Shown here: positions 18,417-33,998 of the stretch, one piece after another
Numbering within the stretch: position 1 is the first letter of the stretch
Layout: each line of letters starts with the position of its first letter
NCBI GenBank assembly: GCA_963850825.1
Contig: CAWKOQ010000015.1
Span: 406 to 64,405, forward strand
DNA: 64,000 nucleotides
Direction: 5' to 3'
Source of the DNA: an uncultured Gammaproteobacteria bacterium
GTDB lineage: Bacteria > Pseudomonadota > Gammaproteobacteria > Steroidobacterales > Woeseiaceae
Translations under genes and position numbers: made by a program
The notes under the pieces: generated by a model
The model's database searches: none
What the model saw: the letters and a program-made list of their open reading frames with translations, nothing else
Told to the model about the DNA's origin: nothing

Positions 18417-18880
18417 GGGTGAGGCCGATTCTTCCCTGGTGGCATAGGGATCATGCCGCTTGTGGATTCCATGTATTCCTTATAACCGGGCCGTTCTCTG
18501 GCGAGTTTCTTGTCGAGCGTCGCCTGCCCCGTGACGTTGACTATCAGGTAAGTATACAGAACCGGTCCGATGATCGTTAAAAGGCCCGGCGGAACGTCGC
18601 AGGCGATGAGAAACAGTCCCCACCAGACGCACAGTTCACCGAAGTAGTTCGGATGCCGCGAGTATCGCCACAATCCGCTGCGCAGTATTGTGCCCTTACT
18701 CGCAGGTTCGGCACGAAAGCGCGTCAGCTGTAAGTCCGCGACTGTTTCAAAAACGAAGCCGATCAACCAGACGGACACGCCGACATAGGTCGGCCATCCG
18801 AGTTCCGAAGGAAACGTAAACATCTGACCGAGTTGTACTGGCACGGAAACGAACCAGATCACCTGCCCGATTGACTCCAC
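18413..18880 (-). CDS. Short DUF1295 / ICMT-steroid-reductase-fold membrane protein (C-terminal half only relative to paralogs)
   Basis: GLWRYSRHPNYFGELCVWWGLF and the tail align with 47731-48540 and 52725-53543, but ~115 N-terminal residues are missing. GTG start with GGAG 9 nt upstream. Confidence 0.7.
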   Translation of the reverse strand: MESIGQVIWFVSVPVQLGQMFTFPSELGWPTYVGVSVWLIGFVFETVADLQLTRFRAEPASKGTILRSGLWRYSRHPNYFGELCVWWGLFLIACDVPPGLLTIIGPVLYTYLIVNVTGQATLDKKLARERPGYKEYMESTSGMIPMPPGKNRPHP

Positions 18881-18914
18881 TTATGCGTCTCCACCCCACT
18901 TATGCGTCTCCACC
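18877..18914. repeat. Perfect 19-bp tandem duplication spanning the SD and GTG start of the short DUF1295 gene
   Basis: CCACTTATGCGTCTCCACC x2 (gene strand: GGTGGAGACGCATAAGTGG x2). Confidence 0.95.
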
Positions 18915-18949
18915 CCGCTGGTTCGTTGCTGGCTAAAGCGGTTTTTATT

Positions 18950-22683: not shown

Positions 22684-24372
22684 TCAGCCTGTTTCTGCAG
22701 CGGCGGGAAACTTCGTCTGTACGATGCGAAAACGACTCGTCACAAACGCGAGATCGGACAGGCATGCATTGCCGGCCGGGTTCAAACCCGTGACATGAAA
22801 GTCAGAATAGGCAGCGGCAAAGTTGATAGGCATGCCGATCAGATTACATGCCAGTGACGCGCCTGCCATGTGATACGCGTTTTCCGCAAGCTCGAGGAAA
22901 TGCGCATCGGTCGAATAGACGTGTGACGTAATTGCACCGTGATCGCGCACGTCTTCGGTCGCGCGCTGCAGCGCATGGTCGGCATTATCGCAGCCGATAA
23001 CGAACGATATCGGCCCGAAATGTTCTTTGCCGTACAGCGCTCTGTCGCCGGCGTCGACCTTGAGCATCAACGGCGTCGCGGTCCGCGCTTTGTCGTACTC
23101 GGGATGCTCGTACGGGCCCGATTCGCGCAGCACGCTCACACCGGCGGCGGCAGCCATGGACTTGATCGCGCCATAGATATTCTCGTCAACGAGCGTACCG
23201 CAAAGATATGCGGCCTGTTTGGGATTTGCGATCAGCTTGTCGACCGCAGCAACAAGAGCATGGCAGATATCGTCGAAAGACTTGTGCCCTGCATCTGTAG
23301 CAATCCCGTCCCGCGGCACGAAAATGTTCTGCACGCTGGTGCACATCTGCGCTGATGCCTGACAAAGGGAATGCGCGATCGCATCGCACATGCCCTGGAA
23401 GTCGTCGCTCGATTCGATGACGACCGAATTGCATCCCGCCGTCTCGGTATAGACGAGCGCATTCGGACAATTGTCTTCGATCCACTTGCCGAACTGTGGC
23501 CCTCCCGTGAAATCGATGATTGCCGTGTCGGGGTGATGCAAAAGTTCGATCGTAACTGGCGTGTCCCCTGTATCCGCTGCCATTGTCACGAGATTCGGGT
23601 CGTGGCCGTTTTTGGCGAGTACCTCACGCATCGCGCGTACGAACAGCGCTACTGGCAGCGTCGTTTTCGGATGCGGTTTGACGACGACCGGGTTGCCAGT
23701 CGCGAGACTTGCGAGGATGGCAGGATAGCCGTTCCACTGCGGGAACGTCGCACATGTAATCACAACCGAAGTGCCGCGAGGAATCAGGCGATAACGTTTC
23801 TCGAGACGAGTTTCCGCGGCGGCGCCGAAACGACGCTCCCAACTCGCCGTTGCAGGCACATCCTTCATCGCCTTGTACGCATACGCGAGTGCCTCGAGAC
23901 CGCGATCCAGTGCGTTGGCACCGCAGCCGGCGAACGCCATGATGAAGCTCTGCCCCGCCGTGTGCACGGTGGCATGCGCATTGACGAACAGCGAATCGGG
24001 TTGGCCCAACCGGTCGAGAATTTCGAGACACACGCCGACACGTTCTTCCGTATCCAGTGCACACCATTCCCGTTGCGCGACCCTGGCCGCCTCGAACAGC
24101 GTGTGGACATCGACTTTCGGATAGGTGATGCCGAGTGGCGATTCCGTAAATGGCGATACTTCTTCACCGACGCGATCGATCGTGCCCGGCATGTCCATCG
24201 CAAACGGTCGGCCCAGCAACGCGTCGAACGCCGCCTTGCCCTGCGCAGGAATCTCCTTGCCGTGTATCTTGCTGCTTGGAGATTCGGGATACGCGGTCCA
24301 CGAATAGCGCTTTTTGCAGGCATCGATTGCCTTGTCCAGCAAAGCGCGATGCTGCTCGAATAACTTGCTCAT
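22684..24372 (-). CDS. Aldehyde dehydrogenase, PaaN-like (long ~560-aa subtype)
   Basis: 562 aa in the ALDH superfamily. The N-terminus MSKLFEQHRALLDKAIDACKKRYSWTAYPESPS resembles PaaN-type enzymes. Confidence 0.7.
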   Translation of the reverse strand: MSKLFEQHRALLDKAIDACKKRYSWTAYPESPSSKIHGKEIPAQGKAAFDALLGRPFAMDMPGTIDRVGEEVSPFTESPLGITYPKVDVHTLFEAARVAQREWCALDTEERVGVCLEILDRLGQPDSLFVNAHATVHTAGQSFIMAFAGCGANALDRGLEALAYAYKAMKDVPATASWERRFGAAAETRLEKRYRLIPRGTSVVITCATFPQWNGYPAILASLATGNPVVVKPHPKTTLPVALFVRAMREVLAKNGHDPNLVTMAADTGDTPVTIELLHHPDTAIIDFTGGPQFGKWIEDNCPNALVYTETAGCNSVVIESSDDFQGMCDAIAHSLCQASAQMCTSVQNIFVPRDGIATDAGHKSFDDICHALVAAVDKLIANPKQAAYLCGTLVDENIYGAIKSMAAAAGVSVLRESGPYEHPEYDKARTATPLMLKVDAGDRALYGKEHFGPISFVIGCDNADHALQRATEDVRDHGAITSHVYSTDAHFLELAENAYHMAGASLACNLIGMPINFAAAYSDFHVTGLNPAGNACLSDLAFVTSRFRIVQTKFPAAAETG

Positions 24373-24593
24373 GCCTGCCCCGTCAAATGATCAATGCCGC
24401 AGATGTTGCTGTCACGTACAACTTGTCATCGGTATCAACGATGCGACCATCGGCGCCGCTCGAGAAGCGCGGTACACGCTCCATGCCGGTCAAATGTGCC
24501 AAATCCTTATTGTAGTTGGAAGCCATGGGATTATTGTCTTATAGAGCCAACGTCGCAGATGGCGCCAGATCCAGGCAAGAGTGATGACTAGTT

Positions 24594-24610
24594 ACTTGTA
24601 TAATTAGACT
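24594..24610 (+). promoter_or_regulatory. Operator-like 17-mer (16/17)
   Basis: ACTTGTATAATTAGACT, 61 nt upstream of GTG 24672. It lies in the 300-bp divergent gap. Confidence 0.7.
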
Positions 24611-24671
24611 TATAGACGATATCATGCCAAATCCGGGATTCGCAAGCTGACAGGCTGGGAGCGCAGAGAAC

Positions 24672-25562
24672 GTGCTAAATGATTTCCTGAAGCTGCAGGC
24701 CGACATGCTCGCCGCCAGGGCCGAACTCGGACTGGCCCTGTCCGGCGGCTGGTTACTGGACAAGGCGGCTCCGTGCGCTGACGGCAACCGCCCCGTCGTG
24801 ACAATCCCGGGATTCCTGGCATCAGAGACCACGCTTTCGCGGCTCGGGCGATTCCTGAACAGGCATGGATTCGCGGCACAAAGCTGGGGCATGGGACGCA
24901 ATCTCGGGCCGCAAGGCCGAAGCTGGAGCGACGTTCTCGATCAGATGACGCACCAGGTCGGCGAAACTATTCGCCGCCTCGCCGACGAGCATTCGGCGCC
25001 TGTGGCATTGATTGGACAGAGTCTCGGCGGCGTATACGCGCGCGAGTTGGCGGCGCACATGCCGGACGAGATCGATCGCGTCATCATGCTTGGTTCGCCA
25101 ACACTGCACCCCTATATGCAGACGCACGACAATCGCGTGATTGCGCAAATGGGCTACTGGGTGAGCCGTCAGTCACACGCCGAGATGGCTGGTCGCCGCG
25201 GCTTGTTACACCTCGGTCCCGATCGTCCACCGCTGCCGTGCATATCGATTCACAGCCCGTGCGACGGAGTCGTTGACGAGTCATCAGCAGTAATACCGCA
25301 GTACATCGTCGATCAAAGCGATAACGCCGCGCCGAGAGAAAATCTCCGTGTACTCTCCTCGCACGTCGGCATGTCCGTCAATCCCTGGGTAATGCTCGCC
25401 ATCGCCGACAGACTTGTCCAGGATCGCGACGACTGGGAGCCATTCGACCCCTATCGTTACTTTCCGGAAAATCTCGAAGCTGTCGTCTCAAGACTCTACC
25501 CTGCTCAGGATGAAGATGCAGTCGCAGCCGACATCACGGCGCTCGCGGAGAGCGGACCGTGA
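24672..25562 (+). CDS. Alpha/beta hydrolase (lipase/esterase-like)
   Basis: GQSLGG nucleophile elbow. 296 aa. First gene of a 4-gene, translationally coupled operon. Confidence 0.75.
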   Translation: MLNDFLKLQADMLAARAELGLALSGGWLLDKAAPCADGNRPVVTIPGFLASETTLSRLGRFLNRHGFAAQSWGMGRNLGPQGRSWSDVLDQMTHQVGETIRRLADEHSAPVALIGQSLGGVYARELAAHMPDEIDRVIMLGSPTLHPYMQTHDNRVIAQMGYWVSRQSHAEMAGRRGLLHLGPDRPPLPCISIHSPCDGVVDESSAVIPQYIVDQSDNAAPRENLRVLSSHVGMSVNPWVMLAIADRLVQDRDDWEPFDPYRYFPENLEAVVSRLYPAQDEDAVAADITALAESGP

Positions 25563-26443
25563 ACCAGCCGGCGATCAGACTTCCTGCACCGATCGTCACG
25601 CTGTCCGACGAACATCGTTACATGAACCTGTTGGTCGAAACGCTGGATGAGCACCTCGAGAGCATGAATGAGCCCGCCATGGGCGACTATTTCCTGATGC
25701 AGGACATCGTGCGCTACATGCACGACTATTCCGACAAAGTGCACCACCCAACCGAAGACCTGATGTTCGACAAACTGGTGCGGCGAAACCCCGCTCGTGA
25801 GAAGGACGTGGCACGCCTGCGGCGGGAACATGGCTTCCTGGACAACAATACGAGCGAGCTCATGGACTTGCTCGAGGTTGCCGCCGAACGCCAAACAGCC
25901 GCAGATGCGAAGGCTGTGCGCGACGCTGTTGGCGCTTACATCCACAGACTCCGGCAACACATGCAGTTTGAGGAAAGCGAACTTTTCCCAAGTGCAACCC
26001 GATGCCTGGCGAGCAAGGACTGGCATGACATCGAGGCGCGCCTCGAGGCGGCGGAAGATCCACTCTTCGGCGAGACCGTCCAGCGCGAATACCGGGTCCT
26101 TTACGAGTACTTCGCCAATCGTTCCGGACAGATTTCGCGCAAGGTGACAAACTTCGGGTTCCTGCAACTCGACAATATGATTGTCAGTGCTGACGCTATC
26201 GAGACAGGCATCTCGGAAATGTGGCAGATGCTGCAGGAGCACGCATCCTCGCTCGAACGGGAGTTCCGAGACGTCACCGAAAAAGCGGCTGATAGCGGTG
26301 GCATCGCTGCCAGGATTGCGCAGCAAGCAGAATATGCCGGGGTCGTCGGAAAAACGGCGTTGTCAGCGGGCAGCGGAGCAGCCGGCATCTATTTCAGGAC
26401 ATTGAAGAACGCCGCCGTATCATTTTTCAAGGGCGCGCAGTGA
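25559..26443 (+). CDS. Hemerythrin (HHE cation-binding) domain protein with Ala/Gly-rich C-terminal tail
   Basis: LSDEHRYM, HHPTEDLMFDKL and HMQFEESELF are His/Glu ligand-like motifs. GTGA overlaps occur at both ends. Confidence 0.75.
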   Translation: MNQPAIRLPAPIVTLSDEHRYMNLLVETLDEHLESMNEPAMGDYFLMQDIVRYMHDYSDKVHHPTEDLMFDKLVRRNPAREKDVARLRREHGFLDNNTSELMDLLEVAAERQTAADAKAVRDAVGAYIHRLRQHMQFEESELFPSATRCLASKDWHDIEARLEAAEDPLFGETVQREYRVLYEYFANRSGQISRKVTNFGFLQLDNMIVSADAIETGISEMWQMLQEHASSLEREFRDVTEKAADSGGIAARIAQQAEYAGVVGKTALSAGSGAAGIYFRTLKNAAVSFFKGAQ

Positions 26444-27897
26444 AACACTATTCCCAGGTCACTGCTGAGGTCGATCAGTCGAGAGGCGGACGCACCACGG
26501 CCGCATTCTTCGATTTCGACGGGACGCTGATTGCGGGCTTTTCGGTGGCATCGTTCGTGCAACGCCGACTGCTGGGCGGCAACATGCCGCCGCGGGAAAT
26601 GTTCGCGCAATTCGTAGCGGCCTGGGAATACGGCATTGGCACGGCCGACTTTGCACGCGTCCTGGCCCGATCGGCCGAGAGCCTGCGCGGCAGATCGGAA
26701 ACTGAGCTGGCGGAAACCGCAAGGGAAGTCTATGAGAAGGACCTCTCAGGCAGTATCTACCCTGAGTCGCGCGCCCTCATAGAGGCCCACCGCGCCAAAG
26801 GACATACGATTGTTATCGTATCGTCGGCGACGCAATACCAGGTACAACATGTCGCGGACGAGCTCGGCATCGAGCATGTTCTGTGCACCGAACTCGAGGT
26901 CGAAGACGGCGCCCTTACGGGCGAGATTATCCCGCCAATCTGTTACGGCGAGGGCAAGCTGCATGCGGCACAGCGCTTCGCCAACGAGCATGGCGTCAAA
27001 CTCGACAAGAGCTATTTCTATTCCGACGGTGGTGAGGACATTCCGCTGCTTGAAGCTGTCGGATTCCCGCGGCCGATCAATCCGGATCGTAGACTGGCCC
27101 GCAAGTCCCGACGCGAAGGCTGGCCTGTGCAACGGTTTACCAGCCGCGGACTGCCCGGACTTACCGATGTCGTGAGGACCAGCCTGGTTTACAGTAGCCT
27201 GGTCGGCTCGTTCATGACTGGCCTTCCGGCGTTATTACTCAACCAGTCGAAGCGTGACCTCGTCAATGTCGCGATACCCACGTGGGGTGATTTCGGCAGC
27301 GCGGTTGCCGGACTGGACATCGAGACTGAGGGCGAAGAGCACCTCTGGTCGCATCGTCCAGCCGTCTTCATTTTCAACCATCAGAGTCAGACTGACGCAC
27401 TGATTATCTCGCGGCTTCTGCGGCGGGACTTCACAGGTGTGGCCAAGAAAGAGATGAAATTGAATCCGTTGGTCGGCACGGTTCTCGATGCAGTGGGTAC
27501 AGTGTTCATCGATCGTGACGATCATGACAAGGCGATCGAGGCATTGAAGCCCGCTGTCGACAGCCTCAGGAACGGGACGTCGTTCGCGATTGCGCCCGAA
27601 GGACAGCGCAGCCGGGGGTACAAACTCGGCCGGTTCAAGATGGGCGCGTTTCACATCGCGATGCAGGCCGGCGTCGCTATCGTGCCGATCGTGATCGCAA
27701 ACTCGTCAGACTCGATGCCCAAGAGTGGCATATTCATTCGTCCGGCCAGGATCAGCGTCAAGGTATTGCCTCCCGTCGCTACCGTCGACTGGACGACCGA
27801 TAACATCCATCATCGCGTCGATGAAATTCGTCGCATGTTCCTCAGGGAACTCGGGCAGACCCGCGATGAGGATGTAAAATTGCGGCGAGTGAAATAA
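26440..27897 (+). CDS. Fusion protein: HAD-IB phosphatase domain + PlsC-type 1-acylglycerol-3-phosphate acyltransferase domain
   Basis: HAD motifs FFDFDGTLI, SSAT and YSDGGEDIPLL. Acyltransferase motifs FIFNHQSQTD (HX4D) and IAPEGQRSRG. Confidence 0.85.
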   Translation: MKHYSQVTAEVDQSRGGRTTAAFFDFDGTLIAGFSVASFVQRRLLGGNMPPREMFAQFVAAWEYGIGTADFARVLARSAESLRGRSETELAETAREVYEKDLSGSIYPESRALIEAHRAKGHTIVIVSSATQYQVQHVADELGIEHVLCTELEVEDGALTGEIIPPICYGEGKLHAAQRFANEHGVKLDKSYFYSDGGEDIPLLEAVGFPRPINPDRRLARKSRREGWPVQRFTSRGLPGLTDVVRTSLVYSSLVGSFMTGLPALLLNQSKRDLVNVAIPTWGDFGSAVAGLDIETEGEEHLWSHRPAVFIFNHQSQTDALIISRLLRRDFTGVAKKEMKLNPLVGTVLDAVGTVFIDRDDHDKAIEALKPAVDSLRNGTSFAIAPEGQRSRGYKLGRFKMGAFHIAMQAGVAIVPIVIANSSDSMPKSGIFIRPARISVKVLPPVATVDWTTDNIHHRVDEIRRMFLRELGQTRDEDVKLRRVK

Positions 27898-27913
27898 AGT
27901 TTCAAGCCAGCTG

Positions 27914-29668
27914 ATGCCACGCATACTCGACAACCCGGCGTTTCAGGAAGAACTGGAAGCCATCGCGCAGCAATCGGGGCAATCGATCAAAGCCGTCCGC
28001 TCCGAAGCGAATGCAAACCTCGAGGAAATGCGTAGCAAGCGCAGCGGCCCATGGGTCGCCGTGTTCGCCTGGCTCAGTCGCTACATCTGCCGCCGCGGTT
28101 ATCATCCCGAATATCACTTTGACACGGCGGAACTTGACCGCGTGCGTAATCTAGCGGCGGGCAAGTCCGTCGTATATCTCGTGACGCACAAGACCTACCT
28201 GGATTTCTTCGTCCTGTATGACTTCTTCTACCGAAATGGCATCGCGCCGCCCTACATTTTTGGCGGTATCAACATGGCTTTCTCGGGCTTCGGTTCGCTG
28301 GCACGTCGGGCCGGCGGAATATTCATCCGGCGCACGTTCACCGACAAGCCAATCTACAAAGCCGTCTTGCACCGCTACATCCGATACCTGGTCGACAGGG
28401 GCTGCTCATTCAGCTGGGCAATAGAAGGTACGCGCTCACGCACCGGCAAGCTCGTCCTGCCGAAGATCGGGCTCCTGAAATATGTAGTCGATGCGGCACG
28501 GCCGCTCGGCGAAGACGTTGTCGCCTACATCCCCGTATCCGTATCCTACGACCAGATTCCGGACGTTACCGATATGACAGCACAGGAATCCGGCGCATCC
28601 AAGAAGCCCGAGAGCCTGGGCTGGTTCATTCGCTATATCCGGCGACTCGGCAACCACTACGGCAACATCTACATTCGATTCGGTGAAGATGTCACCATGC
28701 ATGAAACGCCGGACGCGCCCGATCTGAGCGAGACCCAACAGCTGGTCTCTCCCGAAATCATCGATGTGCAAAAGCTGGCGTTCGAAGTCTGCTATCTGAT
28801 CAACGAGGTCACGCCGGCAACCGTCACCTCACTGATCCTGATGTCGCTGCTGTGCCGCACGGCGGCCAGGCCGGAAAGTATTCATGCCGACGTCGAAGCG
28901 CTGGAGAAGTACCTGGCAAGTCGCCAGTCCGCATCGATCTTCGCCACACCGAACCGACCTGTCCCGAACGACGTGGGAGCCGCCCTCGCCGCGTTGATCA
29001 CCAACGGTATTGTGCAGAAAGATCCCGACGGCAAATATTGCAGCATCGTCCCCGAACGCTACCTCGTTGCCTTGTACTACAGCAATATGGCCGTGCACCA
29101 TTTCGTCATCGCCGCGTTCACCGAGCTCGGCCTGCTCAATATTGCGCACGCCGAATCGGATTCCGGCGAGCAGGCATTCCAGGCAGAAATCCGTCGTTTG
29201 AGAGACCTGTTCAAGTACGAGTTCTTCTTTGCGCGCTCGGAAGCGTTCCGACAACAACTCACCGATGAACTCAGCTACCTGGACGCACCGATGGAGAAGA
29301 TTCTCCATCAGGACAGGGAGGACGCGGTAGCTCTGCTTCGTCGCCAACCGCTGCTCGTCGCCTACGGCGCATTTTCACCGTTTATCAACGCATACCAGGT
29401 CGTCGCAGACTGCCTGCTGCAGGACGGTGCGGCGGCGGCCGACGACCAGGTGGCGTACGTCGCAAGGTGCCAGGCCGAAAGTCGCAAGACCGGTGCCGGC
29501 TACCCGGGGTTTGCCTCGAGGGCACTACTGACCAATGGCTACCTGCTGGCTGAGAATCGCGGACTCCTCGGGGCCGGCGAAGAGGTCGCAAACAATCGCA
29601 AGCACTTTGCGAATGATCTCCGCTTCATATCGGAGCAACTCCACGAGATTCGGGGTATGACCGACTAG
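27914..29668 (+). CDS. PlsB-like glycerol-3-phosphate acyltransferase (short form)
   Basis: YLVTHKTYLDFFVL (HX4D) and WAIEGTRSRTGKLVLPKIGLL match PlsB blocks I and III. Confidence 0.8.
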   Translation: MPRILDNPAFQEELEAIAQQSGQSIKAVRSEANANLEEMRSKRSGPWVAVFAWLSRYICRRGYHPEYHFDTAELDRVRNLAAGKSVVYLVTHKTYLDFFVLYDFFYRNGIAPPYIFGGINMAFSGFGSLARRAGGIFIRRTFTDKPIYKAVLHRYIRYLVDRGCSFSWAIEGTRSRTGKLVLPKIGLLKYVVDAARPLGEDVVAYIPVSVSYDQIPDVTDMTAQESGASKKPESLGWFIRYIRRLGNHYGNIYIRFGEDVTMHETPDAPDLSETQQLVSPEIIDVQKLAFEVCYLINEVTPATVTSLILMSLLCRTAARPESIHADVEALEKYLASRQSASIFATPNRPVPNDVGAALAALITNGIVQKDPDGKYCSIVPERYLVALYYSNMAVHHFVIAAFTELGLLNIAHAESDSGEQAFQAEIRRLRDLFKYEFFFARSEAFRQQLTDELSYLDAPMEKILHQDREDAVALLRRQPLLVAYGAFSPFINAYQVVADCLLQDGAAAADDQVAYVARCQAESRKTGAGYPGFASRALLTNGYLLAENRGLLGAGEEVANNRKHFANDLRFISEQLHEIRGMTD

Positions 29669-31140
29669 CCGGCCTTTTTGCGTGCCTTCGTCTTTTTCAT
29701 TGCCGCTCGCGGACTGCTTCTTTTTGCCTCAGCTTCAGCCGCTTTTTTCAGCGCCTGGAACGAGCGCCTGGCGCAGGCCACAAAAAATTCCGGATCCGGT
29801 GTGATCTCGCGGCAACCGGTAATCGACAGAACGATCTCGCCGTTGTAGCTGATCGCCGTCAGGATCAGGCCCATGCCGTCGAGAACGGGTGCGCAGCCCG
29901 TCGACTTGAGCAGCTTGGCCCCGTTGAGATAAAGCGGGTGCTGAGGCCCGGGAACGTTGGTCACCGTGCAATTCGCCAGTCGGACAGCCCGGTGCCCCAG
30001 ACCGAGACCCGTGACAAGCCGGCCTGCAAGTGCGGTGGTCGCAGACGGGATATGCCGCGAAATGTCGGTCATCTGGCGTGCCCCGATCGCGCGGTCGGTC
30101 GCCTTGGCGCCGGCCGTCGCCTCTCGTACCGCCCGCAGCCGCGCCAGCGGATCGGCCACATCTGTATGCACGGGCACGGTCATCGTTGCGAGCACGTTGC
30201 CGGCAACATCGGACTCTTCGGCCGTACGCGTGTTGATTGGCGCCATGACGATCAGCGACTCTTCCGGGAGCTCGTCCTTGCTCAGCAGGTATTCGCGTAG
30301 CGCTCCACCACACAGTGTCAGGATGACATCATTGACAGTTGCCCCGGCCACGGCCTTCCTGATGTCGCTCAGCTGCTTGAGCTTGAACGTTATACCGTCG
30401 AATACGCGGTGCGCGGATACCGAAGCATTGAATATCGTATCGGGAACCTCGTAATTCTGGCTGATGTCGGGCAACTGGCCCTTGAGAAGCGACTGACTGA
30501 CACCGGGCAGAACCGATGCTACAGCCCTCGCCAGCTGGAACGGCTGGCGGATGTTATTGACAGCGGCGCGAGCCATGAGGCCAAGCCAGGACGGTTCGGA
30601 TTGCGGCTCCCACGGCTCGGCCTCCGGATCCGATTCGAACTCAGGTGTCGTGCTATGCAGCCCGGCAACGATCTCCGTGCCCGTCGCACCATCGATGGCC
30701 GCATGGTGATACTTGGCGATGATCGCGAACGCGCCTTTGGGAATGCCCTTGATGTTATCGAGCCCTTCGACGAGGTACATCTCCCAAGGGGGGCGGCTGA
30801 GGTCCAGGCGGCGCGAGTGAATGCGTGCAACCAGGATGCACAGCTGCCGCCAGTCGCGTGGCTCGGGCAATGCGATGTGACGAATATGAAATTCCAGATC
30901 GAACTGCTCGTCATCAACCCAGTAGGGATAGTCGACGCTGAGCGGCAGCGACACGAGTTTTTGCCTGAAAACGGGCGAAGTGTGCAACCGGCTTTCGACG
31001 TACCTGAGAACATCCTTGTGGCGCACCACGCCACCGGGTGCGGTCGACTGGTCATAGATATACAAAGCCGTCAGATGCAAATGCGCCCCCTGGCTCTCCA
31101 GGTACAGAAACGCAGCATCCTGGGCGGTGAGTTGCCTCAT
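29665..31140 (-). CDS. Wax ester synthase / diacylglycerol acyltransferase (WS/DGAT)
   Basis: HHAAIDGATG (HHxxxDG) active site. Start trimmed to 31140. ATGA overlap with the upstream hydrolase. Confidence 0.9.
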   Translation of the reverse strand: MRQLTAQDAAFLYLESQGAHLHLTALYIYDQSTAPGGVVRHKDVLRYVESRLHTSPVFRQKLVSLPLSVDYPYWVDDEQFDLEFHIRHIALPEPRDWRQLCILVARIHSRRLDLSRPPWEMYLVEGLDNIKGIPKGAFAIIAKYHHAAIDGATGTEIVAGLHSTTPEFESDPEAEPWEPQSEPSWLGLMARAAVNNIRQPFQLARAVASVLPGVSQSLLKGQLPDISQNYEVPDTIFNASVSAHRVFDGITFKLKQLSDIRKAVAGATVNDVILTLCGGALREYLLSKDELPEESLIVMAPINTRTAEESDVAGNVLATMTVPVHTDVADPLARLRAVREATAGAKATDRAIGARQMTDISRHIPSATTALAGRLVTGLGLGHRAVRLANCTVTNVPGPQHPLYLNGAKLLKSTGCAPVLDGMGLILTAISYNGEIVLSITGCREITPDPEFFVACARRSFQALKKAAEAEAKRSSPRAAMKKTKARKKAG

Positions 31141-32069
31141 GCGAACTCGGCAACCTCCGCCCCGACATTCGCGTTGCCATCGCCGGCAACGGCGCAATGA
31201 GACGCGATTAACCTCGCGAACTCCGGTATCAGCTGCTCAGGTAAATCATGGCCCATGCCGGGAATTACATGCAGTTTTGCGTTAGCAACGCACTGCGCCG
31301 TGTGCCGGCCAGCATCGACCGGTATCAGCGGATCGTCCTCGCCATGGATAACGAGCGTCGGCCGCTCGATCGTGTCCAGCAGCTTCGTGCGGTCGCCGCT
31401 TGTCGCCATCGCTGCGAACTGCCTGATATCGGCAGCCGGGTCAAAATTGCGGTCGACCCACGATGTGACACGCTGGCGCCTTTCTTCGGCAGGCATTGGG
31501 TAGGCGGGACTTGCATTCAATTGCCAGAAATCGACGAGATACTTGATCATCTGCTCCCGATCGAAGTTCTTACTGTGCTTGAACAAGGCATGCCTGAGGA
31601 CCTTAGGACGCGGGCCCGGAAGCTTACGACTGCCGCTCGTCGACATGATGGATGTCAGGCTCCTCACACGATCAGCGTGCTTCGCCGCGATAATCTGCGC
31701 GATCATGCCGCCCATCGATGCGCCGACCATGTGAGCCTGGCGAATGTCCAGCGCGTCGAGTAGCCCGATCGTGTCCAACGCCATGTCGTCGAGTGAATAT
31801 GGAACTTTGAACTTGATGCCCAGAAGACTGCCGATCATGGACCGCACCATACCCGGTGCCTTAACGCCATCCAGGTGCGTTGACAGCCCCACATCGCGAT
31901 TATCAAAGCGAATTACGCGAAGTGATTGCTCCGCCAGCACTCGGCAAAAGGCCTCGGGCCAAACCACCATCTGCCCGGCGAATCCCATGATCAGTACAAC
32001 CGCAGGATCACCGGGATCACCGAATTCCTCGAACTCGATCCGGATTCCGTTTGCAGTTACTGATGCCAT
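31137..32069 (-). CDS. Alpha/beta hydrolase (lipase/esterase-like)
   Basis: MASVTANGIRIEFEEFGDPGDPAVVLIMGF... and GASMGG. Start trimmed to 32069. Confidence 0.85.
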   Translation of the reverse strand: MASVTANGIRIEFEEFGDPGDPAVVLIMGFAGQMVVWPEAFCRVLAEQSLRVIRFDNRDVGLSTHLDGVKAPGMVRSMIGSLLGIKFKVPYSLDDMALDTIGLLDALDIRQAHMVGASMGGMIAQIIAAKHADRVRSLTSIMSTSGSRKLPGPRPKVLRHALFKHSKNFDREQMIKYLVDFWQLNASPAYPMPAEERRQRVTSWVDRNFDPAADIRQFAAMATSGDRTKLLDTIERPTLVIHGEDDPLIPVDAGRHTAQCVANAKLHVIPGMGHDLPEQLIPEFARLIASHCAVAGDGNANVGAEVAEFA

Positions 32070-32281
32070 GGATCTTTGTCGATATAGCGGCCGATGGCTT
32101 CGTGGATCTGATTTTCGGTGTTGCGCACATAGACACCGTCGATGTCTTTCGGGATCTCCACGATCACCTCCATATCGGTCGCGCTGTACTCTGAATAACT
32201 CGGCGTCCACACACGTTGCAGGTACGGATGGTCCCAGTTTTCAATGTTTGGCTCGATACGATTTACAAGTTCCACACTCAT
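32057..32281 (-). pseudogene. N-terminal ~65-codon stub of a carotenoid-oxygenase paralog
   Basis: MSVELVNRIEPNIENWDHPYLQRVWTPSYSEYSATDMEVIVEIPKDIDGVYVRNTENQIHEAIGRY aligns with the N-terminus of 43514-44986. It diverges at 32087/32088 (IDKDPWHQ*). Confidence 0.65.
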
Positions 32282-32339
32282 AACAGCCTCTTCAAAACAC
32301 TCAATAGGGTTGGCGCCGATCTGGCCCCTTGACAGACTC

Positions 32340-32356
32340 AGTCTAATAATGAAAGC
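32340..32356 (-). promoter_or_regulatory. Operator-like 17-mer (16/17)
   Basis: + strand AGTCTAATAATGAAAGC. It is 58 nt from start 32281 (-) and 85 nt from start 32442 (+). Confidence 0.7.
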
Positions 32357-32441
32357 TACCAGTGCATCTCGCTGCTGGCAAGTGAGTCGGCGACTGCCAG
32401 GCCAACTATTTTTCGAGAATAATTCTCATTGAGGTCTTCCG

Positions 32442-33998
32442 ATGGCTACCGACCCCACAGCCCCACAGGGCCACGATTCTCCACCGCCCATCGCCACGGG
32501 CAAGGAGTACATTGACAGCCTGCGTGGTCGAAAACTCAAGGTCTACCTGTTCGGCGAACGAGTTGACGAACCTGTCGATCACCCGATTATCCGCCCGTCA
32601 ATTAACGCCGTCGCCGCGACTTACGACCTGGCAAAAAACCATCCTGAGCTGGCCACTGCCATGTCGCCACTGACCGGCCAAAGCGTCAATCGCTTTACCC
32701 ACATCGCCGGAAGCCCGGAAGAACTCGTCATGCAGAACAAAATGCAGCGACGGCTGGGACAACTCACGGGCACCTGCTTCCAGCGCTGCGTAGGCATGGA
32801 TGCGATCAACGCACTGCACTCAGTGACCTACGAGATTGATGAAGCGAACGAAACGCAGTACCACCAGCGCTTCAAACGCTTTGTCACGATGGTGCAACAT
32901 TCCGGATTCGTGATCGGTGGTGCAATGACCGACGTCAAGGGCGACCGCAGCAAGGCCCCGCATGAACAGGATGATCCGGATCTGTTCGTGCATGTGTCGA
33001 AGCGCAACGAGGACGGTGTATGGATTCGCGGTGCCAAGGCACACCAGACCGGCTGCATCAACTCACACTGGCTATTGGTGATGCCGACCATGCGGCTTGG
33101 CCCGGACGATAAAGACTACGCCATTGTCGGTGCTATCCCGGTCGATGCGGAGGGGATCACTTATATTTACGGCAGGCAGTCCTGCGACTCCCGAGCGATG
33201 GAAGGCGGCGACATTGATGCCGGCAATGCAAAGTTCAGCGGCCAGGAAGCCATGGTCATTTTCGATGACGTGTTCATCCCATGGGAAAACGTGTTTATGG
33301 ATGGTGAGTACGATTTCGCCGCCATGCTCGTTGAGCGATTCACCTGCTATCACCGACGATCTTATGTCTGCAAGTCTGGCGTCGGCGATGTCCTGATTGG
33401 CGCCGCCGCTACTGCAGCCGATTACAACGGCGTTGAGAACGTCTCTCACATCAAAGACAAACTCGTCGAAATGACACACTTGAATGAGACAATCTACAGC
33501 ACGGGTATTGCATCGAGTTACCAGGCATCCGAGATGAAATCGGGTGTCTATCTCAACGACGATATGATCGCGAACGTCTGCAAGCATCATGTGACCAAGA
33601 TGCCGTATGAGATCGGTCGCCTCGCGCAGGATATCGCAGGCGGACTAATGGTAACTGCGCCTTCGCAGCAGGATTTCGACAGCCCGGAGATCGGCCATGT
33701 CATCCGGAAATACCTCAAGGGACGCAAGGGGATCGATGTCGAGGACCGAATTCGTATCCTGCGCCTGATCGAGAATATGACACTTGGACGCAACGCAGTC
33801 GGCTACCTGACGGAGTCCATGCACGGTGCCGGGTCACCGCAGGCGCAACGGATTCAGATCGCTCGGCAAATGCAGAAAGAATTCAAGAAACAACTCGCCA
33901 AGACGCTTGCCGGCGTCGAGCCGGGACTCGCCGAAGAAGTGCAGGATGATCTGTCCGGGTACATGGCCAGGGTGTTTGAACCGACAGAGACCGATTAA
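32442..33998 (+). CDS. 4-hydroxybutyryl-CoA dehydratase / vinylacetyl-CoA isomerase (AbfD)-like, HpaB superfamily
   Basis: YIDSLRGRKLKVYLFGERVDEPVDHPIIRPSINAVAATYDLA and the Cys pair in TGTCFQRCVGMD are typical of AbfD rather than HpaB. Confidence 0.8.
   Translation: MATDPTAPQGHDSPPPIATGKEYIDSLRGRKLKVYLFGERVDEPVDHPIIRPSINAVAATYDLAKNHPELATAMSPLTGQSVNRFTHIAGSPEELVMQNKMQRRLGQLTGTCFQRCVGMDAINALHSVTYEIDEANETQYHQRFKRFVTMVQHSGFVIGGAMTDVKGDRSKAPHEQDDPDLFVHVSKRNEDGVWIRGAKAHQTGCINSHWLLVMPTMRLGPDDKDYAIVGAIPVDAEGITYIYGRQSCDSRAMEGGDIDAGNAKFSGQEAMVIFDDVFIPWENVFMDGEYDFAAMLVERFTCYHRRSYVCKSGVGDVLIGAAATAADYNGVENVSHIKDKLVEMTHLNETIYSTGIASSYQASEMKSGVYLNDDMIANVCKHHVTKMPYEIGRLAQDIAGGLMVTAPSQQDFDSPEIGHVIRKYLKGRKGIDVEDRIRILRLIENMTLGRNAVGYLTESMHGAGSPQAQRIQIARQMQKEFKKQLAKTLAGVEPGLAEEVQDDLSGYMARVFEPTETD

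What the first reader, a model, noticed from the sequence alone, without database searches (positions are those of the whole stretch)
24594..32356. Compact neutral-lipid (TAG/wax ester) synthesis cluster with a HAD-phosphatase::PlsC fusion, placed under the catabolic operator
Two convergent operons, each behind an operator copy (24594 and 32340), make up the cluster. One encodes lipase-like hydrolase, hemerythrin-domain protein, HAD-IB::PlsC fusion and PlsB-like GPAT, with three gene junctions showing GTGA overlap, GTGA overlap and a 16-nt gap. The other encodes the oxygenase stub, a lipase-like hydrolase and WS/DGAT (ATGA overlap).

On paper this is a full Kennedy-type route. G3P goes to LPA (PlsB-like, HX4D THKTYLD), then to PA (PlsC domain, NHQSQTD). 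PA goes to DAG if the fused HAD domain (DxDGT FFDFDGTLI) acts as a phosphatidate phosphatase. DAG goes to TAG or wax ester (WS/DGAT, HHAAIDG). Eukaryotic lipin/Pah1 phosphatidate phosphatases are HAD-type DxDxT enzymes. A bacterial HAD phosphatase fused to the preceding acyltransferase would be a neat analogue, and I am not aware of one being characterised.

The hemerythrin protein has an Ala/Gly-rich amphipathic-looking tail. It could be an O2, iron or redox sensor or a lipid-body-associated protein. Sharing the operator with the catabolic genes implies that storage-lipid synthesis is switched on together with substrate degradation.
Basis: partly seen in the sequence, partly recalled or inferred. 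Interest (0 to 1): 0.65.

Follow-up and report, generated by a model that had tools for sequence, protein, structure and literature searches.

The report
Storage-fat synthesis genes with fused phosphatase-acyltransferase
This is a real, conserved cluster of genes for making storage fats (triacylglycerol or wax esters) in an uncultured marine gammaproteobacterium, but both the cluster and the idea that its fused phosphatase supplies the missing pathway step were already published, and the idea has not been tested.

Summary
The 17-bp motif is strongly enriched (13 sites against 1.6 expected by chance) and sits at the same positions in relatives. The four-gene and WS/DGAT arrangement recurs in all four long related contigs (67-79% identity). 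The core trio of HAD::PlsC fusion, short PlsB-like GPAT and WS/DGAT recurs across several phyla, including a Mycobacterium plasmid.

- Amara et al. 2016 proposed that the actinobacterial HAD::AGPAT "PlsC" (Rv2483c type) is the missing phosphatidate phosphatase.
- Galván et al. 2023 described this gene organisation, with a "PAP/AGPAT", in Gammaproteobacteria including Woeseiaceae. They noted that its function remains to be shown.
- The HAD domain is a capped, phosphoserine-phosphatase-like IB type, not lipin-like.
- The closest characterised enzymes with this architecture are the plant GPAT4/6 acyltransferase/phosphatases.
- The fusion also occurs alone in housekeeping contexts.

New here: a clade-specific hemerythrin-like partner, a regulatory motif shared with a large catabolic island, and three deletion-truncated first genes. 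Verdict: a new member of a known but biochemically untested kind, of moderate-low interest.

The parts
24594..24610 (+). Copy of the island-wide 17-bp promoter/operator motif (ACTTGTATAATTAGACT), 61 nt upstream of the first gene of the plus-strand operon
   Evidence: An identical 17-mer lies at the orthologous position in L001, L002 and L086, and a variant in L085.
24672..25562 (+). Alpha/beta hydrolase, 296 aa, with a GQSLG nucleophile elbow; a distant esterase/cutinase-like protein ('lipase-like')
   Evidence: Weak Pfam hits to Hydrolase_4 and Palm_thioest. The best solved structure is carboxylesterase Est30, E 6e-5. Homologues of 29-33% identity lie next to WS/DGAT in Saprospiraceae and Parvularculaceae loci.
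25559..26443 (+). Hemerythrin-like HHE protein, 294 aa, with a conserved second half and an Ala/Gly-rich tail; start overlaps the upstream stop (GTGA)
   Evidence: PF01814, 60.4 bits. Candidate metal ligands H19, H55, H62/H63, E66, H134 and E138 are invariant. The family is narrow: 147 hits, nearly all about 290-297 aa. The tail is 40% Ala+Gly.
26440..27897 (+). HAD-IB phosphatase domain (about residues 20-235) fused through a two-helix segment (241-290) to a PlsC-type acyltransferase domain (about 291-470)
   Evidence: AlphaFold2 model with pLDDT 85.9 and pTM 0.83. Fold matches to 3FVV and 5KYM.
27914..29668 (+). PlsB-family glycerol-phosphate acyltransferase, 584 aa, lacking the N-terminal ~190-220 residues of PlsB; HX4D motif HKTYLD
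   Evidence: PF01553 plus PF19277. The best NCBIfam model is the PRK03355 glycerol-3-phosphate acyltransferase model, positions 187-772 of 787, 483.6 bits, below its cut-off of 721. Solved-structure matches 9VUQ and 8E4Y.
29665..31140 (-). WS/DGAT (wax ester synthase/diacylglycerol acyltransferase), 491 aa, HHAAIDG motif, Lys-rich C-terminal tail; its stop codon shares CTAG with the convergent GPAT stop
   Evidence: TIGR02946, 419 bits against a cut-off of 310. Solved-structure matches 7NXG (E 8e-54) and 6CHJ (E 5e-50). Codons checked.
31137..32069 (-). Alpha/beta hydrolase, 310 aa, close to a metagenomic lipase; ATGA overlap with the WS/DGAT start
   Evidence: Abhydrolase_1, 88.7 bits. PDB 8PZG 'ORF17', E 4.8e-63, which is called a lipase in bioRxiv 10.64898/2026.03.24.713787.
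32057..32281 (-). 74-aa remnant of an RPE65-family (carotenoid/stilbene-cleaving type) oxygenase, now the first ORF of the minus-strand operon; about 1.28 kb deleted
   Evidence: Translation. 76% DNA identity to the paralogue at 44790-44955. The gene is full length (493 aa) in L001, L084 and L086. Deletion mapped.
32340..32356 (-). Second copy of the 17-bp motif (GCTTTCATTATTAGACT), 58 nt upstream of the stub start
   Evidence: Conserved block in all five relatives aligned.

Best explanation
The region is a conserved neutral-lipid (triacylglycerol and/or wax ester) assembly module of an uncultured Woeseiaceae-like gammaproteobacterium. It is transcribed as two convergent operons.

Shown by homology: a short PlsB-family acyltransferase and a PlsC-type acyltransferase can build phosphatidate from glycerol-3-phosphate and acyl thioesters. 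A WS/DGAT then acylates diacylglycerol or fatty alcohols.

Inferred: the HAD-IB domain fused to the N-terminus of the PlsC domain sits on the membrane-anchoring two-helix segment. It removes the phosphate from the glycerolipid phosphate made by its own acyltransferase domain (PA to DAG; possibly LPA to MAG). The product is therefore committed to neutral lipid rather than phospholipid.

Also inferred: the two alpha/beta hydrolases (one close to a known lipase) and the clade-specific di-iron hemerythrin-like protein are accessory turnover or sensing components. Both operons start behind the same 17-bp promoter/operator motif that heads at least ten other transcription units of the surrounding catabolic island (RPE65 oxygenases, CoA ligases, thiolases, DUF1295 proteins). 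Lipid assembly is therefore probably co-regulated with breakdown of a hydrophobic substrate. The regulator may be the nearby tandem-HxlR protein.
For: - Domain assignments and curated cut-offs.
- Both catalytic centres are conserved: invariant in 63 close homologues, except that the nucleophile Asp25 is only nearly invariant (at least 90%). They are also conserved in all 82 fusion-bearing loci from several phyla.
- The model is confident, with a defined inter-domain arrangement and PlsC-like membrane helices. Fold matches are 3FVV (TM 0.86-0.89) and T. maritima PlsC 5KYM (TM 0.76).
- The hydrolase-hemerythrin-fusion-GPAT / WS/DGAT arrangement is conserved in four long relatives at 67-79% fusion identity, although their flanks vary.
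- The core trio recurs in Alpha- and Gammaproteobacteria, Saprospiraceae, Binatia/Myxococcota and Nitrospinota: GPAT in 34 of 80 loci and WS/DGAT in 21 of 80, within 10 kb.
- It also occurs on a Mycobacterium paragordonae plasmid: fusion 39% identical over 97% of the query, GPAT 30%, WS/DGAT 25%.
- The Rv2483c and Rv2484c proteins appear in a table of proteins shared between actinobacterial lipid-inclusion proteomes (PMC10699116).
- The same hypothesis was reached independently in PMC4850399 and PMC10351704.
- The domain fails the SerB and histidinol-phosphatase equivalog cut-offs (49 against 144; 124 against 280).
- Motif enrichment and phylogenetic footprinting.
Against: - No biochemical evidence for any HAD::PlsC fusion was found in the literature searched. 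PMC10351704 says the function 'remains to be elucidated'.
- The fusion is not restricted to storage-lipid loci. 46 of 80 genome loci have no GPAT within 10 kb at my thresholds, and 40 of 80 have neither GPAT nor WS/DGAT.
- The nearest Woeseiaceae orthogroup stands alone beside bipA, with smpB nearby in one of the two loci.
- One Woeseiaceae cluster (P0038, 18 members) has Tyr in place of the nucleophile Asp25.
- Known bacterial PA phosphatases for TAG synthesis are said to be PAP2-type (PMC4850399).
- A simple sigma-70 scan finds no canonical promoter at the motif, and no terminators above chance.
- The regulator and the inducer are unknown.
- TAG and wax ester output cannot be told apart from sequence.
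Confidence: 0.55

Rival explanations
1. The fusion works like the plant GPAT4/6 enzymes. The acyltransferase domain acylates glycerol-3-phosphate itself (possibly at sn-2) and the HAD domain dephosphorylates the resulting lysophosphatidate to monoacylglycerol. The PlsB-like enzyme and/or the WS/DGAT then acylate MAG to DAG and TAG, bypassing phosphatidate.
For: - The order of domain types, as I recall it for the plant enzymes, is the same: an N-terminal HAD-like phosphatase followed by a PF01553 acyltransferase. Plant GPAT4/6 have demonstrated GPAT plus phosphatase activity giving sn-2 MAG (Yang et al. 2010, as cited in PMC3327653).
- In mycobacteria a PlsC homologue (PlsM) acylates sn-2 of G3P, and PlsB2 acylates sn-1 of G3P and of 2-acyl-LPA (PMC10593935).
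- The GPAT here scores best against the PRK03355 glycerol-3-phosphate acyltransferase model, which I take, from memory, to be the mycobacterial PlsB2 type.
- From my own knowledge, WS/DGATs such as AtfA can acylate monoacylglycerol.
Against: - The acyltransferase domain passes the AGPAT subfamily-domain model TIGR00530, and its closest solved structure is an LPA acyltransferase.
- No plant GPAT sequence was available, so direct homology of the HAD domains could not be tested.
- With three acyltransferases present, the classical order is the simpler reading.
Confidence: 0.15
2. The HAD domain does not act on the lipid product. It hydrolyses a soluble phosphoester or has a regulatory or structural role, and the fusion is simply one of several PlsC paralogues for membrane phospholipid synthesis. 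The DAG for the WS/DGAT would then come from an unlinked PAP2-type phosphatase or from phospholipid turnover.
For: - The closest annotated relatives of the domain are soluble phosphatases: histidinol-phosphatase models at 124 and 101 bits, and SerB, and SerB2/PSP structures.
- Public annotation calls it 'putative phosphoserine phosphatase'.
- Many fusions sit in housekeeping or unrelated contexts.
- PAP2 enzymes are the bacterial PA phosphatases cited for the Kennedy pathway (PMC4850399).
Against: - It fails every soluble-phosphatase equivalog cut-off.
- The cap region does not align with PSP at sequence level; only residues 114-211 align to 1F5S.
- The position of the PSP amino-binding Glu (nucleophile +9) is Phe or Tyr in this family (the PSP residue role is from my memory).
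- The fusion is stable across many phyla with both active sites intact, and it is repeatedly adjacent to GPAT and WS/DGAT. That is hard to explain for an unrelated soluble activity.
- There is no serine or histidine biosynthesis context.
Confidence: 0.15
3. The module is not mainly a de novo storage pathway. It is part of handling the island's hydrophobic substrate. The lipase-like hydrolases release acyl or alcohol moieties from an ester substrate. The WS/DGAT (co-transcribed with an RPE65 oxygenase in relatives) re-esterifies alcohol intermediates, such as isoprenoid or apocarotenoid alcohols, into wax-type esters. The glycerolipid acyltransferases remodel membranes during growth on that substrate.
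For: - RPE65 - hydrolase - WS/DGAT form one operon in L001 and L084, and RPE65 - WS/DGAT in L086.
- Both operons carry the island motif.
- The island encodes two further RPE65 oxygenases, phytoene-desaturase-like flavoenzymes, three DUF1295 proteins, a limonene-epoxide-hydrolase-like protein, many CoA ligases and thiolases, and a TonB receptor.
- Two hydrolases sit inside 'biosynthetic' operons.
- From my own knowledge, Marinobacter WS enzymes make isoprenoid wax esters.
Against: - The RPE65 gene is dispensable for the cluster. It is deleted to a stub here and absent in L085.
- The fusion-GPAT-WS/DGAT trio occurs in many lineages without any such island.
- The substrate of the island is not identified.
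Confidence: 0.12

Closest known systems
Actinobacterial TAG cluster: Rhodococcus jostii RHA1 atf9-plsB-plsC and M. tuberculosis Rv2482c (plsB2) - Rv2483c (plsC, HAD::AGPAT) - Rv2484c (tgs) - Rv2485c (lipQ) - Rv2486
   Same: - Same Pfam architecture for the fusion (PF12710 plus PF01553), next to a PlsB-family GPAT, a WS/DGAT and an esterase/lipase.
- A mycobacterial plasmid copy is 39% identical over 97% of the fusion, with a GPAT at 30% and a WS/DGAT at 25%.
- The same 'HAD domain = missing PAP' hypothesis was made for it (PMC4850399).
- The Rv2483c and Rv2484c proteins are listed among proteins shared between actinobacterial lipid-inclusion proteomes.
   Different: - Here there are two convergent operons instead of one operon.
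- The GPAT lacks the N-terminal domain of PlsB2.
- There is an extra hemerythrin-like gene and a second hydrolase.
- The alpha/beta hydrolases are not detectably homologous to the one in the mycobacterial plasmid cluster.
- The phylum is different.
- The cluster is embedded in a catabolic island and shares its regulatory motif.
Gammaproteobacterial 'complete Kennedy pathway next to ws/dgat' scaffolds of Galván et al. 2023 (S1-7808 / Woeseiaceae bin JSS_woes1 / Woeseia sp. StnF)
   Same: The paper's text lists the same gene families: WS/DGAT, alpha/beta hydrolase, GPAT, putative lipase, hypothetical protein(s) and a PAP/AGPAT. The taxonomic neighbourhood is also the same (PMC10351704). Homologues of the window's proteins are named Woeseiaceae.
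   Different: I could not fetch those scaffolds, so identity of order and orientation is not verified. The paper does not describe the hemerythrin, the shared operator motif or the link to a catabolic island.
Land-plant bifunctional sn-2 GPAT/phosphatases (Arabidopsis GPAT4, GPAT6)
   Same: The only characterised enzymes I know with an N-terminal HAD-like phosphatase fused to a PF01553 acyltransferase, in which the phosphatase dephosphorylates the acyltransferase's own product (the architecture is from my own knowledge).
   Different: They are eukaryotic and act in cutin synthesis. The product is MAG from LPA, not DAG from PA. Direct sequence homology of the HAD domains was not tested here.
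Lipin/Pah1 Mg2+-dependent phosphatidate phosphatases
   Same: Catalysis through a DxDxT HAD-superfamily active site.
   Different: They belong to a different HAD branch. The window's domain has a four-helix C1 cap and matches HAD-IB/PSP structures. There was no Lipin_N or LNS2 Pfam hit even at E up to 10, and no lipin structure among the top 50 fold matches.
Thermotoga maritima PlsC (PDB 5KYM)
   Same: HX4D and the downstream acyltransferase blocks are present. The N-terminal two-helix membrane motif is reproduced in the model (helices 241-268 and 271-290). Profile E 3.5e-30; TM 0.76.
   Different: It has no fused phosphatase. The window's protein is not an E. coli PlsC equivalog (77.7 bits against a cut-off of 501).

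Membership tests
HAD superfamily, subfamily IB (TIGR01490 HAD-SF-IB-hyp1) | Score above the curated cut-off | tested here: met
   177.5 bits against a cut-off of 98.3. PF12710, 132.7 bits.
HAD superfamily, subfamily IB (TIGR01490 HAD-SF-IB-hyp1) | Four catalytic motifs: I DxDxT, II S/T, III K, IV (D/E)xxxD | tested here: met
   D25-F-D27-G-T29, S128/S129, K173 and D196...D200. D27, T29, S129, K173, D196 and D200 are invariant in 63 homologues; D25 is at least 90% conserved. Motifs I and IV are kept in all 82 loci.
HAD superfamily, subfamily IB (TIGR01490 HAD-SF-IB-hyp1) | Helical C1 cap inserted between motifs I and II | tested here: met
   The model has helices at 35-45, 51-66, 71-81 and 87-105 between strand 21-24 and strand 123-131. 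The best fold match is the HAD-IB protein 3FVV, TM 0.86-0.89.
Phosphoserine phosphatase SerB | Equivalog score cut-off (TIGR00338; NF008350) | tested here: not met
   49.1 bits against 144.15, and 41.8 against 413. Only the core (residues 114-211) aligns to M. jannaschii PSP.
HAD-IB histidinol-phosphatase (NF052360 / NF052359) | Equivalog score cut-off | tested here: not met
   124.2 bits against 280, and 100.8 against 400.
Lipin/Pah1 phosphatidate phosphatase | DxDxT catalytic motif | tested here: met
   DFDGT at residues 25-29.
Lipin/Pah1 phosphatidate phosphatase | N-LIP/C-LIP (LNS2) domain architecture and lipin-type fold | tested here: not met
   No lipin Pfam family at E up to 10. No lipin or Pah structure among the 50 best fold matches.
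Lipin/Pah1 phosphatidate phosphatase | Mg2+-dependent hydrolysis of phosphatidate | not testable with these tools
   Needs an enzyme assay.
PlsC / AGPAT (lysophospholipid acyltransferase, PF01553) | HX4D catalytic block plus the downstream conserved blocks (FxDR, PEGxRS) | tested here: met
   NHQSQTD (H314, D319), F356-I-D358-R359 and P386-E-G-x-R390-S are invariant or nearly so. HQSxxD is present in all 82 loci.
PlsC / AGPAT (lysophospholipid acyltransferase, PF01553) | Curated subfamily-domain cut-off (TIGR00530) and similarity to a solved PlsC, including the two-helix membrane motif | tested here: met
   107.8 bits against 102.95. 5KYM at E 3.5e-30 and TM 0.76 over 244 columns.
PlsC / AGPAT (lysophospholipid acyltransferase, PF01553) | Equivalog of E. 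coli PlsC (NF011593) | tested here: not met
   77.7 bits against a cut-off of 501. The acyl acceptor (LPA or G3P) is therefore not assigned.
Plant bifunctional sn-2 GPAT/phosphatase (GPAT4/6) | N-terminal HAD-like phosphatase followed by a PF01553 acyltransferase in one polypeptide | tested here: met
   Domain order. The plant architecture is from my own knowledge and from PMC3327653.
Plant bifunctional sn-2 GPAT/phosphatase (GPAT4/6) | Sequence homology to the plant enzymes; sn-2 G3P acylation and LPA phosphatase activity | not tested
   No plant GPAT sequence could be obtained. Yang et al. 2010 is not held. The activities need assays.
PlsB-type glycerol-3-phosphate acyltransferase | Acyltransferase domain with HX4D, plus the GPAT C-terminal region | tested here: met
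   PF01553 at 55.3 bits and PF19277 at 164.1 bits. HKTYLD motif.
PlsB-type glycerol-3-phosphate acyltransferase | Equivalog cut-offs and the full-length architecture with the N-terminal ~200-residue domain | tested here: not met
   483.6 bits against 721 (PRK03355, matching model positions 187-772 only), 196.6 against 610 (PlsB), and 285.6 against 698. Only 16 nt separate the start codon from the upstream stop.
WS/DGAT (bacterial wax ester synthase/diacylglycerol acyltransferase) | HHxxxDG active site, catalytic plus C-terminal domains, curated cut-off | tested here: met
   HHAAIDG motif. PF03007 at 213.8 bits and PF06974 at 107.7 bits. TIGR02946 at 419.3 bits against 309.95. Solved-structure matches 7NXG and 6CHJ.
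Hemerythrin HHE cation-binding domain | Pfam cut-off and conserved His/Glu metal ligands | tested here: met
   60.4 bits against 25.3. H19, H55, H62, H63, E66, H134 and E138 are invariant in 13 family members. Metal or O2 binding itself was not tested.
Actinobacterial Kennedy-pathway TAG cluster (Rv2482c-Rv2485c / atf9-plsB-plsC) | HAD::AGPAT fusion adjacent to a PlsB-family GPAT and a WS/DGAT | tested here: met
   Window gene order. A homologous trio lies on M. paragordonae plasmid NZ_CP025547.
Actinobacterial Kennedy-pathway TAG cluster (Rv2482c-Rv2485c / atf9-plsB-plsC) | All three acyltransferases transcribed as a single operon | tested here: not met
   Here WS/DGAT is on the opposite strand, in a convergent operon whose stop codon overlaps that of the GPAT.

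The most novel reading that the evidence does not exclude
The HAD::PlsC fusion is a bacterial counterpart of the plant GPAT4/6 design. It is a membrane-anchored acyltransferase whose fused phosphatase strips the phosphate from its own product, so glycerolipid is channelled straight to DAG or MAG and on to TAG or wax ester without passing through the phospholipid PA pool. In this lineage the whole module, together with a clade-specific di-iron hemerythrin-like partner, belongs to a regulon governed by one asymmetric 17-bp promoter/operator, possibly read by a tandem-HxlR pseudo-dimer. Storage-lipid assembly would then be transcriptionally slaved to catabolism of a hydrophobic (isoprenoid or carotenoid-like) substrate.
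Probability: 0.3. Interest if true: 0.55.

Novelty: new member of a known kind. Interest (0 to 1): 0.35.

Why it matters
The enzyme that makes diacylglycerol for bacterial storage-lipid synthesis is still poorly defined outside a few PAP2-type examples. A self-contained fusion + GPAT + WS/DGAT module that needs no separate phosphatase would be a compact, portable route for engineering TAG or wax ester production. It would also explain how widespread sediment bacteria (Woeseiaceae, Saprospiraceae, Myxococcota, Binatia) commit carbon to storage.

This window does not raise that question for the first time, because it was posed in 2016 and 2023. It does add a well-conserved example, evidence that both active sites are under constraint across phyla, and a candidate regulatory link between hydrophobic-substrate catabolism and lipid storage that could be tested directly.

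Tried and rejected
- Looking up the window's own fusion protein for its source contig returned nothing. The organism is therefore inferred only from the names of homologues: Woeseiaceae and Gammaproteobacteria MAGs.
- Three literature searches for an experimental characterisation of a bacterial HAD::PlsC/AGPAT fusion found none, only the two hypothesis papers. A fourth query failed on syntax.
- Yang et al. 2010 on plant GPAT4/6 is not held. It is cited only through PMC3327653.
- A simple sigma-70 promoter and terminator scan of 24300-32500 gave nothing above the shuffle expectation and nothing at the motif. My reading of the motif as a TTGnnn-17-TAGACT promoter with a conserved spacer remains an unverified interpretation.
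- PF23270 appears in the precomputed domain list for two homologues but was not reproduced for P0108 or for the window's protein at E up to 10. I dropped it.
- Lipin-like membership was considered and rejected. SerB and histidinol-phosphatase membership was also rejected.
The distance and orientation between the HAD and PlsC active sites, which was the main reason for modelling, could not be measured.
- The hemerythrin is not part of the pan-phylum core. There was no hit in the 80 genome loci, and the family is narrow.

Full report

Yes.

Plus strand:
- 24672-25562: a 296-aa alpha/beta hydrolase with only weak family hits.
- 25559-26443: a 294-aa hemerythrin HHE protein.
- 26440-27897: a 485-aa protein with an N-terminal HAD-IB domain (TIGR01490, 177.5 bits against a cut-off of 98.3) and a C-terminal PlsC/AGPAT domain (TIGR00530, 107.8 against 102.95).
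- 27914-29668: a 584-aa PlsB-family acyltransferase (PF01553 plus GPAT_C).

Minus strand:
- 29665-31140: a 491-aa WS/DGAT (TIGR02946, 419 against 310).
- 31137-32069: a 310-aa alpha/beta hydrolase.
- 32057-32281: a 74-aa ORF.

The quoted motifs (FFDFDGTLI, NHQSQTD, THKTYLD, HHAAIDG) are in the translations. The junctions are GTGA, GTGA, a 16-nt gap and ATGA. The last 55 residues of the hemerythrin protein are 40% Ala+Gly.

The two 'operator' copies are at 24594-24610(+) and 32340-32356(-). Each points into its operon, 61 and 58 nt from the first start codon. The pattern ACTTNNNTAATTAGACT has 13 matches with at most 3 mismatches in the window, against 1.59 expected (0 of 100 shuffles reach 13). 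Almost all lie just upstream of genes, in the direction of transcription.

**2. Is it more than a chance juxtaposition?**

Four long metagenomic contigs were examined whose fusion protein is 67-79% identical to the window's (a fifth, short contig, L002, is cut off after the GPAT). All four keep the order hydrolase - hemerythrin - fusion - GPAT, converging on WS/DGAT. An alpha/beta hydrolase and/or a full-length 493-aa RPE65-family oxygenase lies upstream of the WS/DGAT. The flanking genes differ between contigs.

The 17-bp motif is a conserved block at the head of both operons in these relatives, while the surrounding intergenic DNA has diverged.

A pattern scan of one genome per GTDB species found 547 relatives of the fusion. 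Among the best 80 loci (48-54% identity), a GPAT homologue lies within 10 kb in 34, a WS/DGAT in 21 and a homologue of the first hydrolase in 7. In a quick NJ tree, the linked copies fall in several separate clades: Parvularculaceae/Marinicaulis, Halieaceae and other Gammaproteobacteria, Saprospiraceae, Binatia/Myxococcota and Nitrospinota.

A 305-kb Mycobacterium paragordonae plasmid carries WS/DGAT <- alpha/beta hydrolase <- ADH, divergent from fusion -> GPAT-like -> enoyl-CoA hydratase. The fusion there is 39% identical over 97% of the query, the GPAT 30% and the WS/DGAT 25%. The trio of fusion, short GPAT and WS/DGAT is therefore an old, widely distributed module.

**3. What the fusion protein looks like**

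In 63 homologues the HAD residues D27, T29, S129, K173, D196 and D200 are invariant, and the nucleophile D25 is at least 90% conserved. The acyltransferase residues H314, K336, E338, F356, D358, R359, E387, G388 and R390 are invariant, and D319 is at least 90% conserved. In all 82 fusion-bearing loci from several phyla, DxDxT, motif IV and HQSxxD are retained. Both domains are therefore under catalytic constraint.

An AlphaFold2 model is confident (pLDDT 85.9, pTM 0.83). It shows a Rossmann-like HAD core with a four-helix cap (residues 35-105), then two long helices (241-268 and 271-290), then the acyltransferase fold.

Foldseek places the N-terminal half on the HAD-IB protein 3FVV (unknown function, TM 0.86-0.89) and on SerB/PSP structures. 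It places the C-terminal half, including the two helices, on Thermotoga PlsC 5KYM (TM 0.76). No lipin or Pah structure appears among the top 50.

The HAD domain fails the curated cut-offs for SerB (49 against 144) and for the HAD-IB histidinol phosphatases (124 against 280). Its cap does not align to PSP at sequence level. So it is a PSP-type fold with an unassigned substrate.

**4. The other genes**

- **GPAT.** It matches the PRK03355 glycerol-3-phosphate acyltransferase model from position 187 onward and lacks the PlsB N-terminal domain. It passes no equivalog cut-off, so G3P versus acyl-G3P as acceptor is open. This matters because mycobacterial PlsB2 acylates sn-1 of both G3P and 2-acyl-LPA, and a PlsC homologue (PlsM) acylates sn-2 of G3P (PMC10593935).
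- **Second hydrolase.** It is close to PDB 8PZG (E 4.8e-63), which is referred to as 'lipase ORF17' from a metagenomic library.
- **First hydrolase.** It is only remotely esterase/cutinase-like.
- **WS/DGAT.** It resembles the solved WS/DGAT chains 7NXG (O-acyltransferase WSD) and 6CHJ (diacylglycerol O-acyltransferase).
- **Hemerythrin-like protein.** It belongs to a narrow family: 147 hits, nearly all about 290-297 aa, with named members from Woeseiaceae or Gammaproteobacteria. The candidate metal ligands are invariant, and there is a conserved second half (DPLFG, YRVLYEYF, GFLQLD..SADA) before the variable Ala/Gly-rich tail. It is absent from the 80 more distant loci. It is therefore a clade-specific accessory, not part of the core.

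**5. Most likely mechanism**

Shown by homology: the module has two glycerol-phosphate-level acyltransferases and a terminal WS/DGAT.

Inferred: the fused HAD domain is held at the membrane by the PlsC two-helix motif. It dephosphorylates the lipid phosphate produced by the adjacent active site (PA to DAG, or LPA to MAG) and so feeds the WS/DGAT.

I give about 0.5 to the lipid-phosphatase role and about 0.7 to the module being a neutral-lipid assembly unit.

Support:
- The stability of the fusion across phyla.
- Its repeated adjacency to GPAT and WS/DGAT.
- Its failure to qualify as any known soluble phosphatase.
- The listing of Rv2483c and Rv2484c among proteins shared between actinobacterial lipid-inclusion proteomes (PMC10699116).

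Against:
- No biochemistry exists for any member of the family.
- 40 of the 80 loci have neither a GPAT nor a WS/DGAT nearby.
- The sister Woeseiaceae orthogroup sits alone beside bipA, with smpB nearby in one of the two loci. The architecture therefore also serves some general role.
- One Woeseiaceae cluster has Tyr at the nucleophile position (P0038).

**6. Regulation**

The surrounding 64 kb is a catabolic island. It encodes:
- two full RPE65 oxygenases plus the stub;
- five CoA ligases and four thiolases;
- an acyl-CoA dehydrogenase and several SDRs;
- a PaaN-type aldehyde dehydrogenase and an HpaB-like oxygenase;
- phytoene-desaturase-like flavoenzymes;
- three DUF1295 proteins;
- a limonene-epoxide-hydrolase-like protein and a fatty-acid hydroxylase;
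- a molybdopterin oxidoreductase;
- a TonB receptor and MFS transporters.

The same motif heads many of these units. A 315-aa protein with two HxlR domains (17469-18416) lies in the window, and homologues lie next to the cluster in L084, L085 (two copies) and L086. A single-chain pseudo-dimer would fit a non-palindromic site, but this is my inference only. The simple promoter scan found nothing at the motif.

The claim that lipid assembly and catabolism share a cis-element is well supported. The claim that they are switched on together is a reasonable but untested inference.

**7. Comparison with what is known**

- Amara et al. [quoted passage not shown] - Galván et al. 2023 (PMC10351704) found the AGPAT-HAD gene next to ws/dgat in Actinomycetota, Alpha- and Gammaproteobacteria. 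They described scaffolds sharing WS/DGAT, alpha/beta hydrolase, GPAT, putative lipase, hypothetical proteins and 'PAP/AGPAT' with Woeseiaceae genomes, and stated that the function 'remains to be elucidated'.
- JGI annotates the family as 'putative phosphoserine phosphatase/1-acylglycerol-3-phosphate O-acyltransferase'.

The lipin analogy is superficial, since lipins belong to a different HAD branch. The better functional precedent is plant GPAT4/6, in which a fused phosphatase acts on the acyltransferase's own product.

**8. Verdict**

- The enzymology is still open.
- Genuinely new details are the hemerythrin-like partner, the shared motif and the link to a catabolic island, and the deletions noted below.
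- Interest is 0.35, and the novelty class is 'new member of a known kind'.

Noticed in passing
window 32057-32281(-), 24383-24526(-), 18413-18880(-): Three genes that each sit first after a motif-bearing promoter are deletion remnants compared with relatives. The RPE65 oxygenase is cut to 74 aa (about 1.28 kb lost). The 4HBT thioesterase is cut to 47 aa by an in-frame internal deletion of about 101 codons. A DUF1295 gene lacks its first ~121 codons. The downstream genes look intact. It is unclear whether this reflects real gene decay, selection or a metagenome-assembly effect.
   Followed up: partly
window 18879-18916: A perfect 19-bp tandem duplication (GGGGTGGAGACGCATAAGT x2, minus-strand reading) lies exactly at the junction where the 5' part of the DUF1295 gene is missing.
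   Followed up: no
window 7970, 8866, 14290, 18950, 24594, 32340, 42070, 47580, 52653, 58848, 61647, 63443 (motif starts): A regulon-like set of about 12 gene-proximal copies of ACTTkyATwATTAGACT, all pointing into the downstream gene. In several copies TTGnnn lies 6 nt upstream, giving a TTGnnn-17-TAGACT layout. In front of the first hydrolase, a second conserved box (ACGATATCATG) follows the motif.
   Followed up: partly
window 17469-18416(-); L084 6174-7088, L085 6364-7311 and 17163-18137, L086 1-472: A protein with two HxlR winged-helix domains in one chain is always near the cluster or island. It is a candidate reader of the asymmetric motif. In the window it is co-oriented just downstream of a motif-headed DUF1295 gene, so it may be autoregulated.
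   Followed up: no
window 29665-29668: The convergent GPAT and WS/DGAT genes end on the same four bases (CTAG serves as a stop codon on both strands). There is no intergenic space and no terminator-like hairpin. The same overlap occurs in L084, L085 and L086, but not in L001.
   Followed up: partly
L087 6001-7458, L088 6001-7482 (also L004-L013): Woeseiaceae genomes carry a second orthogroup of the same HAD::PlsC fusion, about 53% identical. It stands alone next to bipA/typA, with smpB nearby in L087. It may be the housekeeping LPA acyltransferase of these organisms.
   Followed up: partly
protein P0038 (Woeseiaceae MAG cluster, 18 member sequences): This 71%-identical homologue has FFYFDGT instead of FFDFDGT. 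The HAD nucleophile Asp is replaced by Tyr, while the rest of the protein is conserved. This could be a natural phosphatase-dead variant or a sequencing error.
   Followed up: no
window 25559-26443(+), residues ~160-235: The hemerythrin-like protein has a strongly conserved second region (DPLFG, YRVLYEYF, GFLQLDxxIVSADA) with no Pfam match. This may be an undescribed domain specific to this clade's lipid cluster.
   Followed up: partly
L089 (Mycobacterium paragordonae plasmid NZ_CP025547.1, 119878-133293): A plasmid-borne copy of the actinobacterial TAG cluster (WS/DGAT, alpha/beta hydrolase, ADH, HAD::PlsC fusion, short GPAT, enoyl-CoA hydratase, MaoC dehydratase). It sits beside a P450 and an aldehyde dehydrogenase, so here too the module is next to catabolic-type genes.
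   Followed up: partly
window 1-64000: The island's gene content (RPE65 oxygenases, phytoene-desaturase-like flavoenzymes, three DUF1295/steroid-reductase-like proteins, a limonene-epoxide-hydrolase-like protein, a fatty-acid hydroxylase, many CoA ligases and SCP2-type thiolases, a TonB receptor) suggests degradation of an isoprenoid, carotenoid or other hydrophobic substrate. The substrate was not identified.
   Followed up: no
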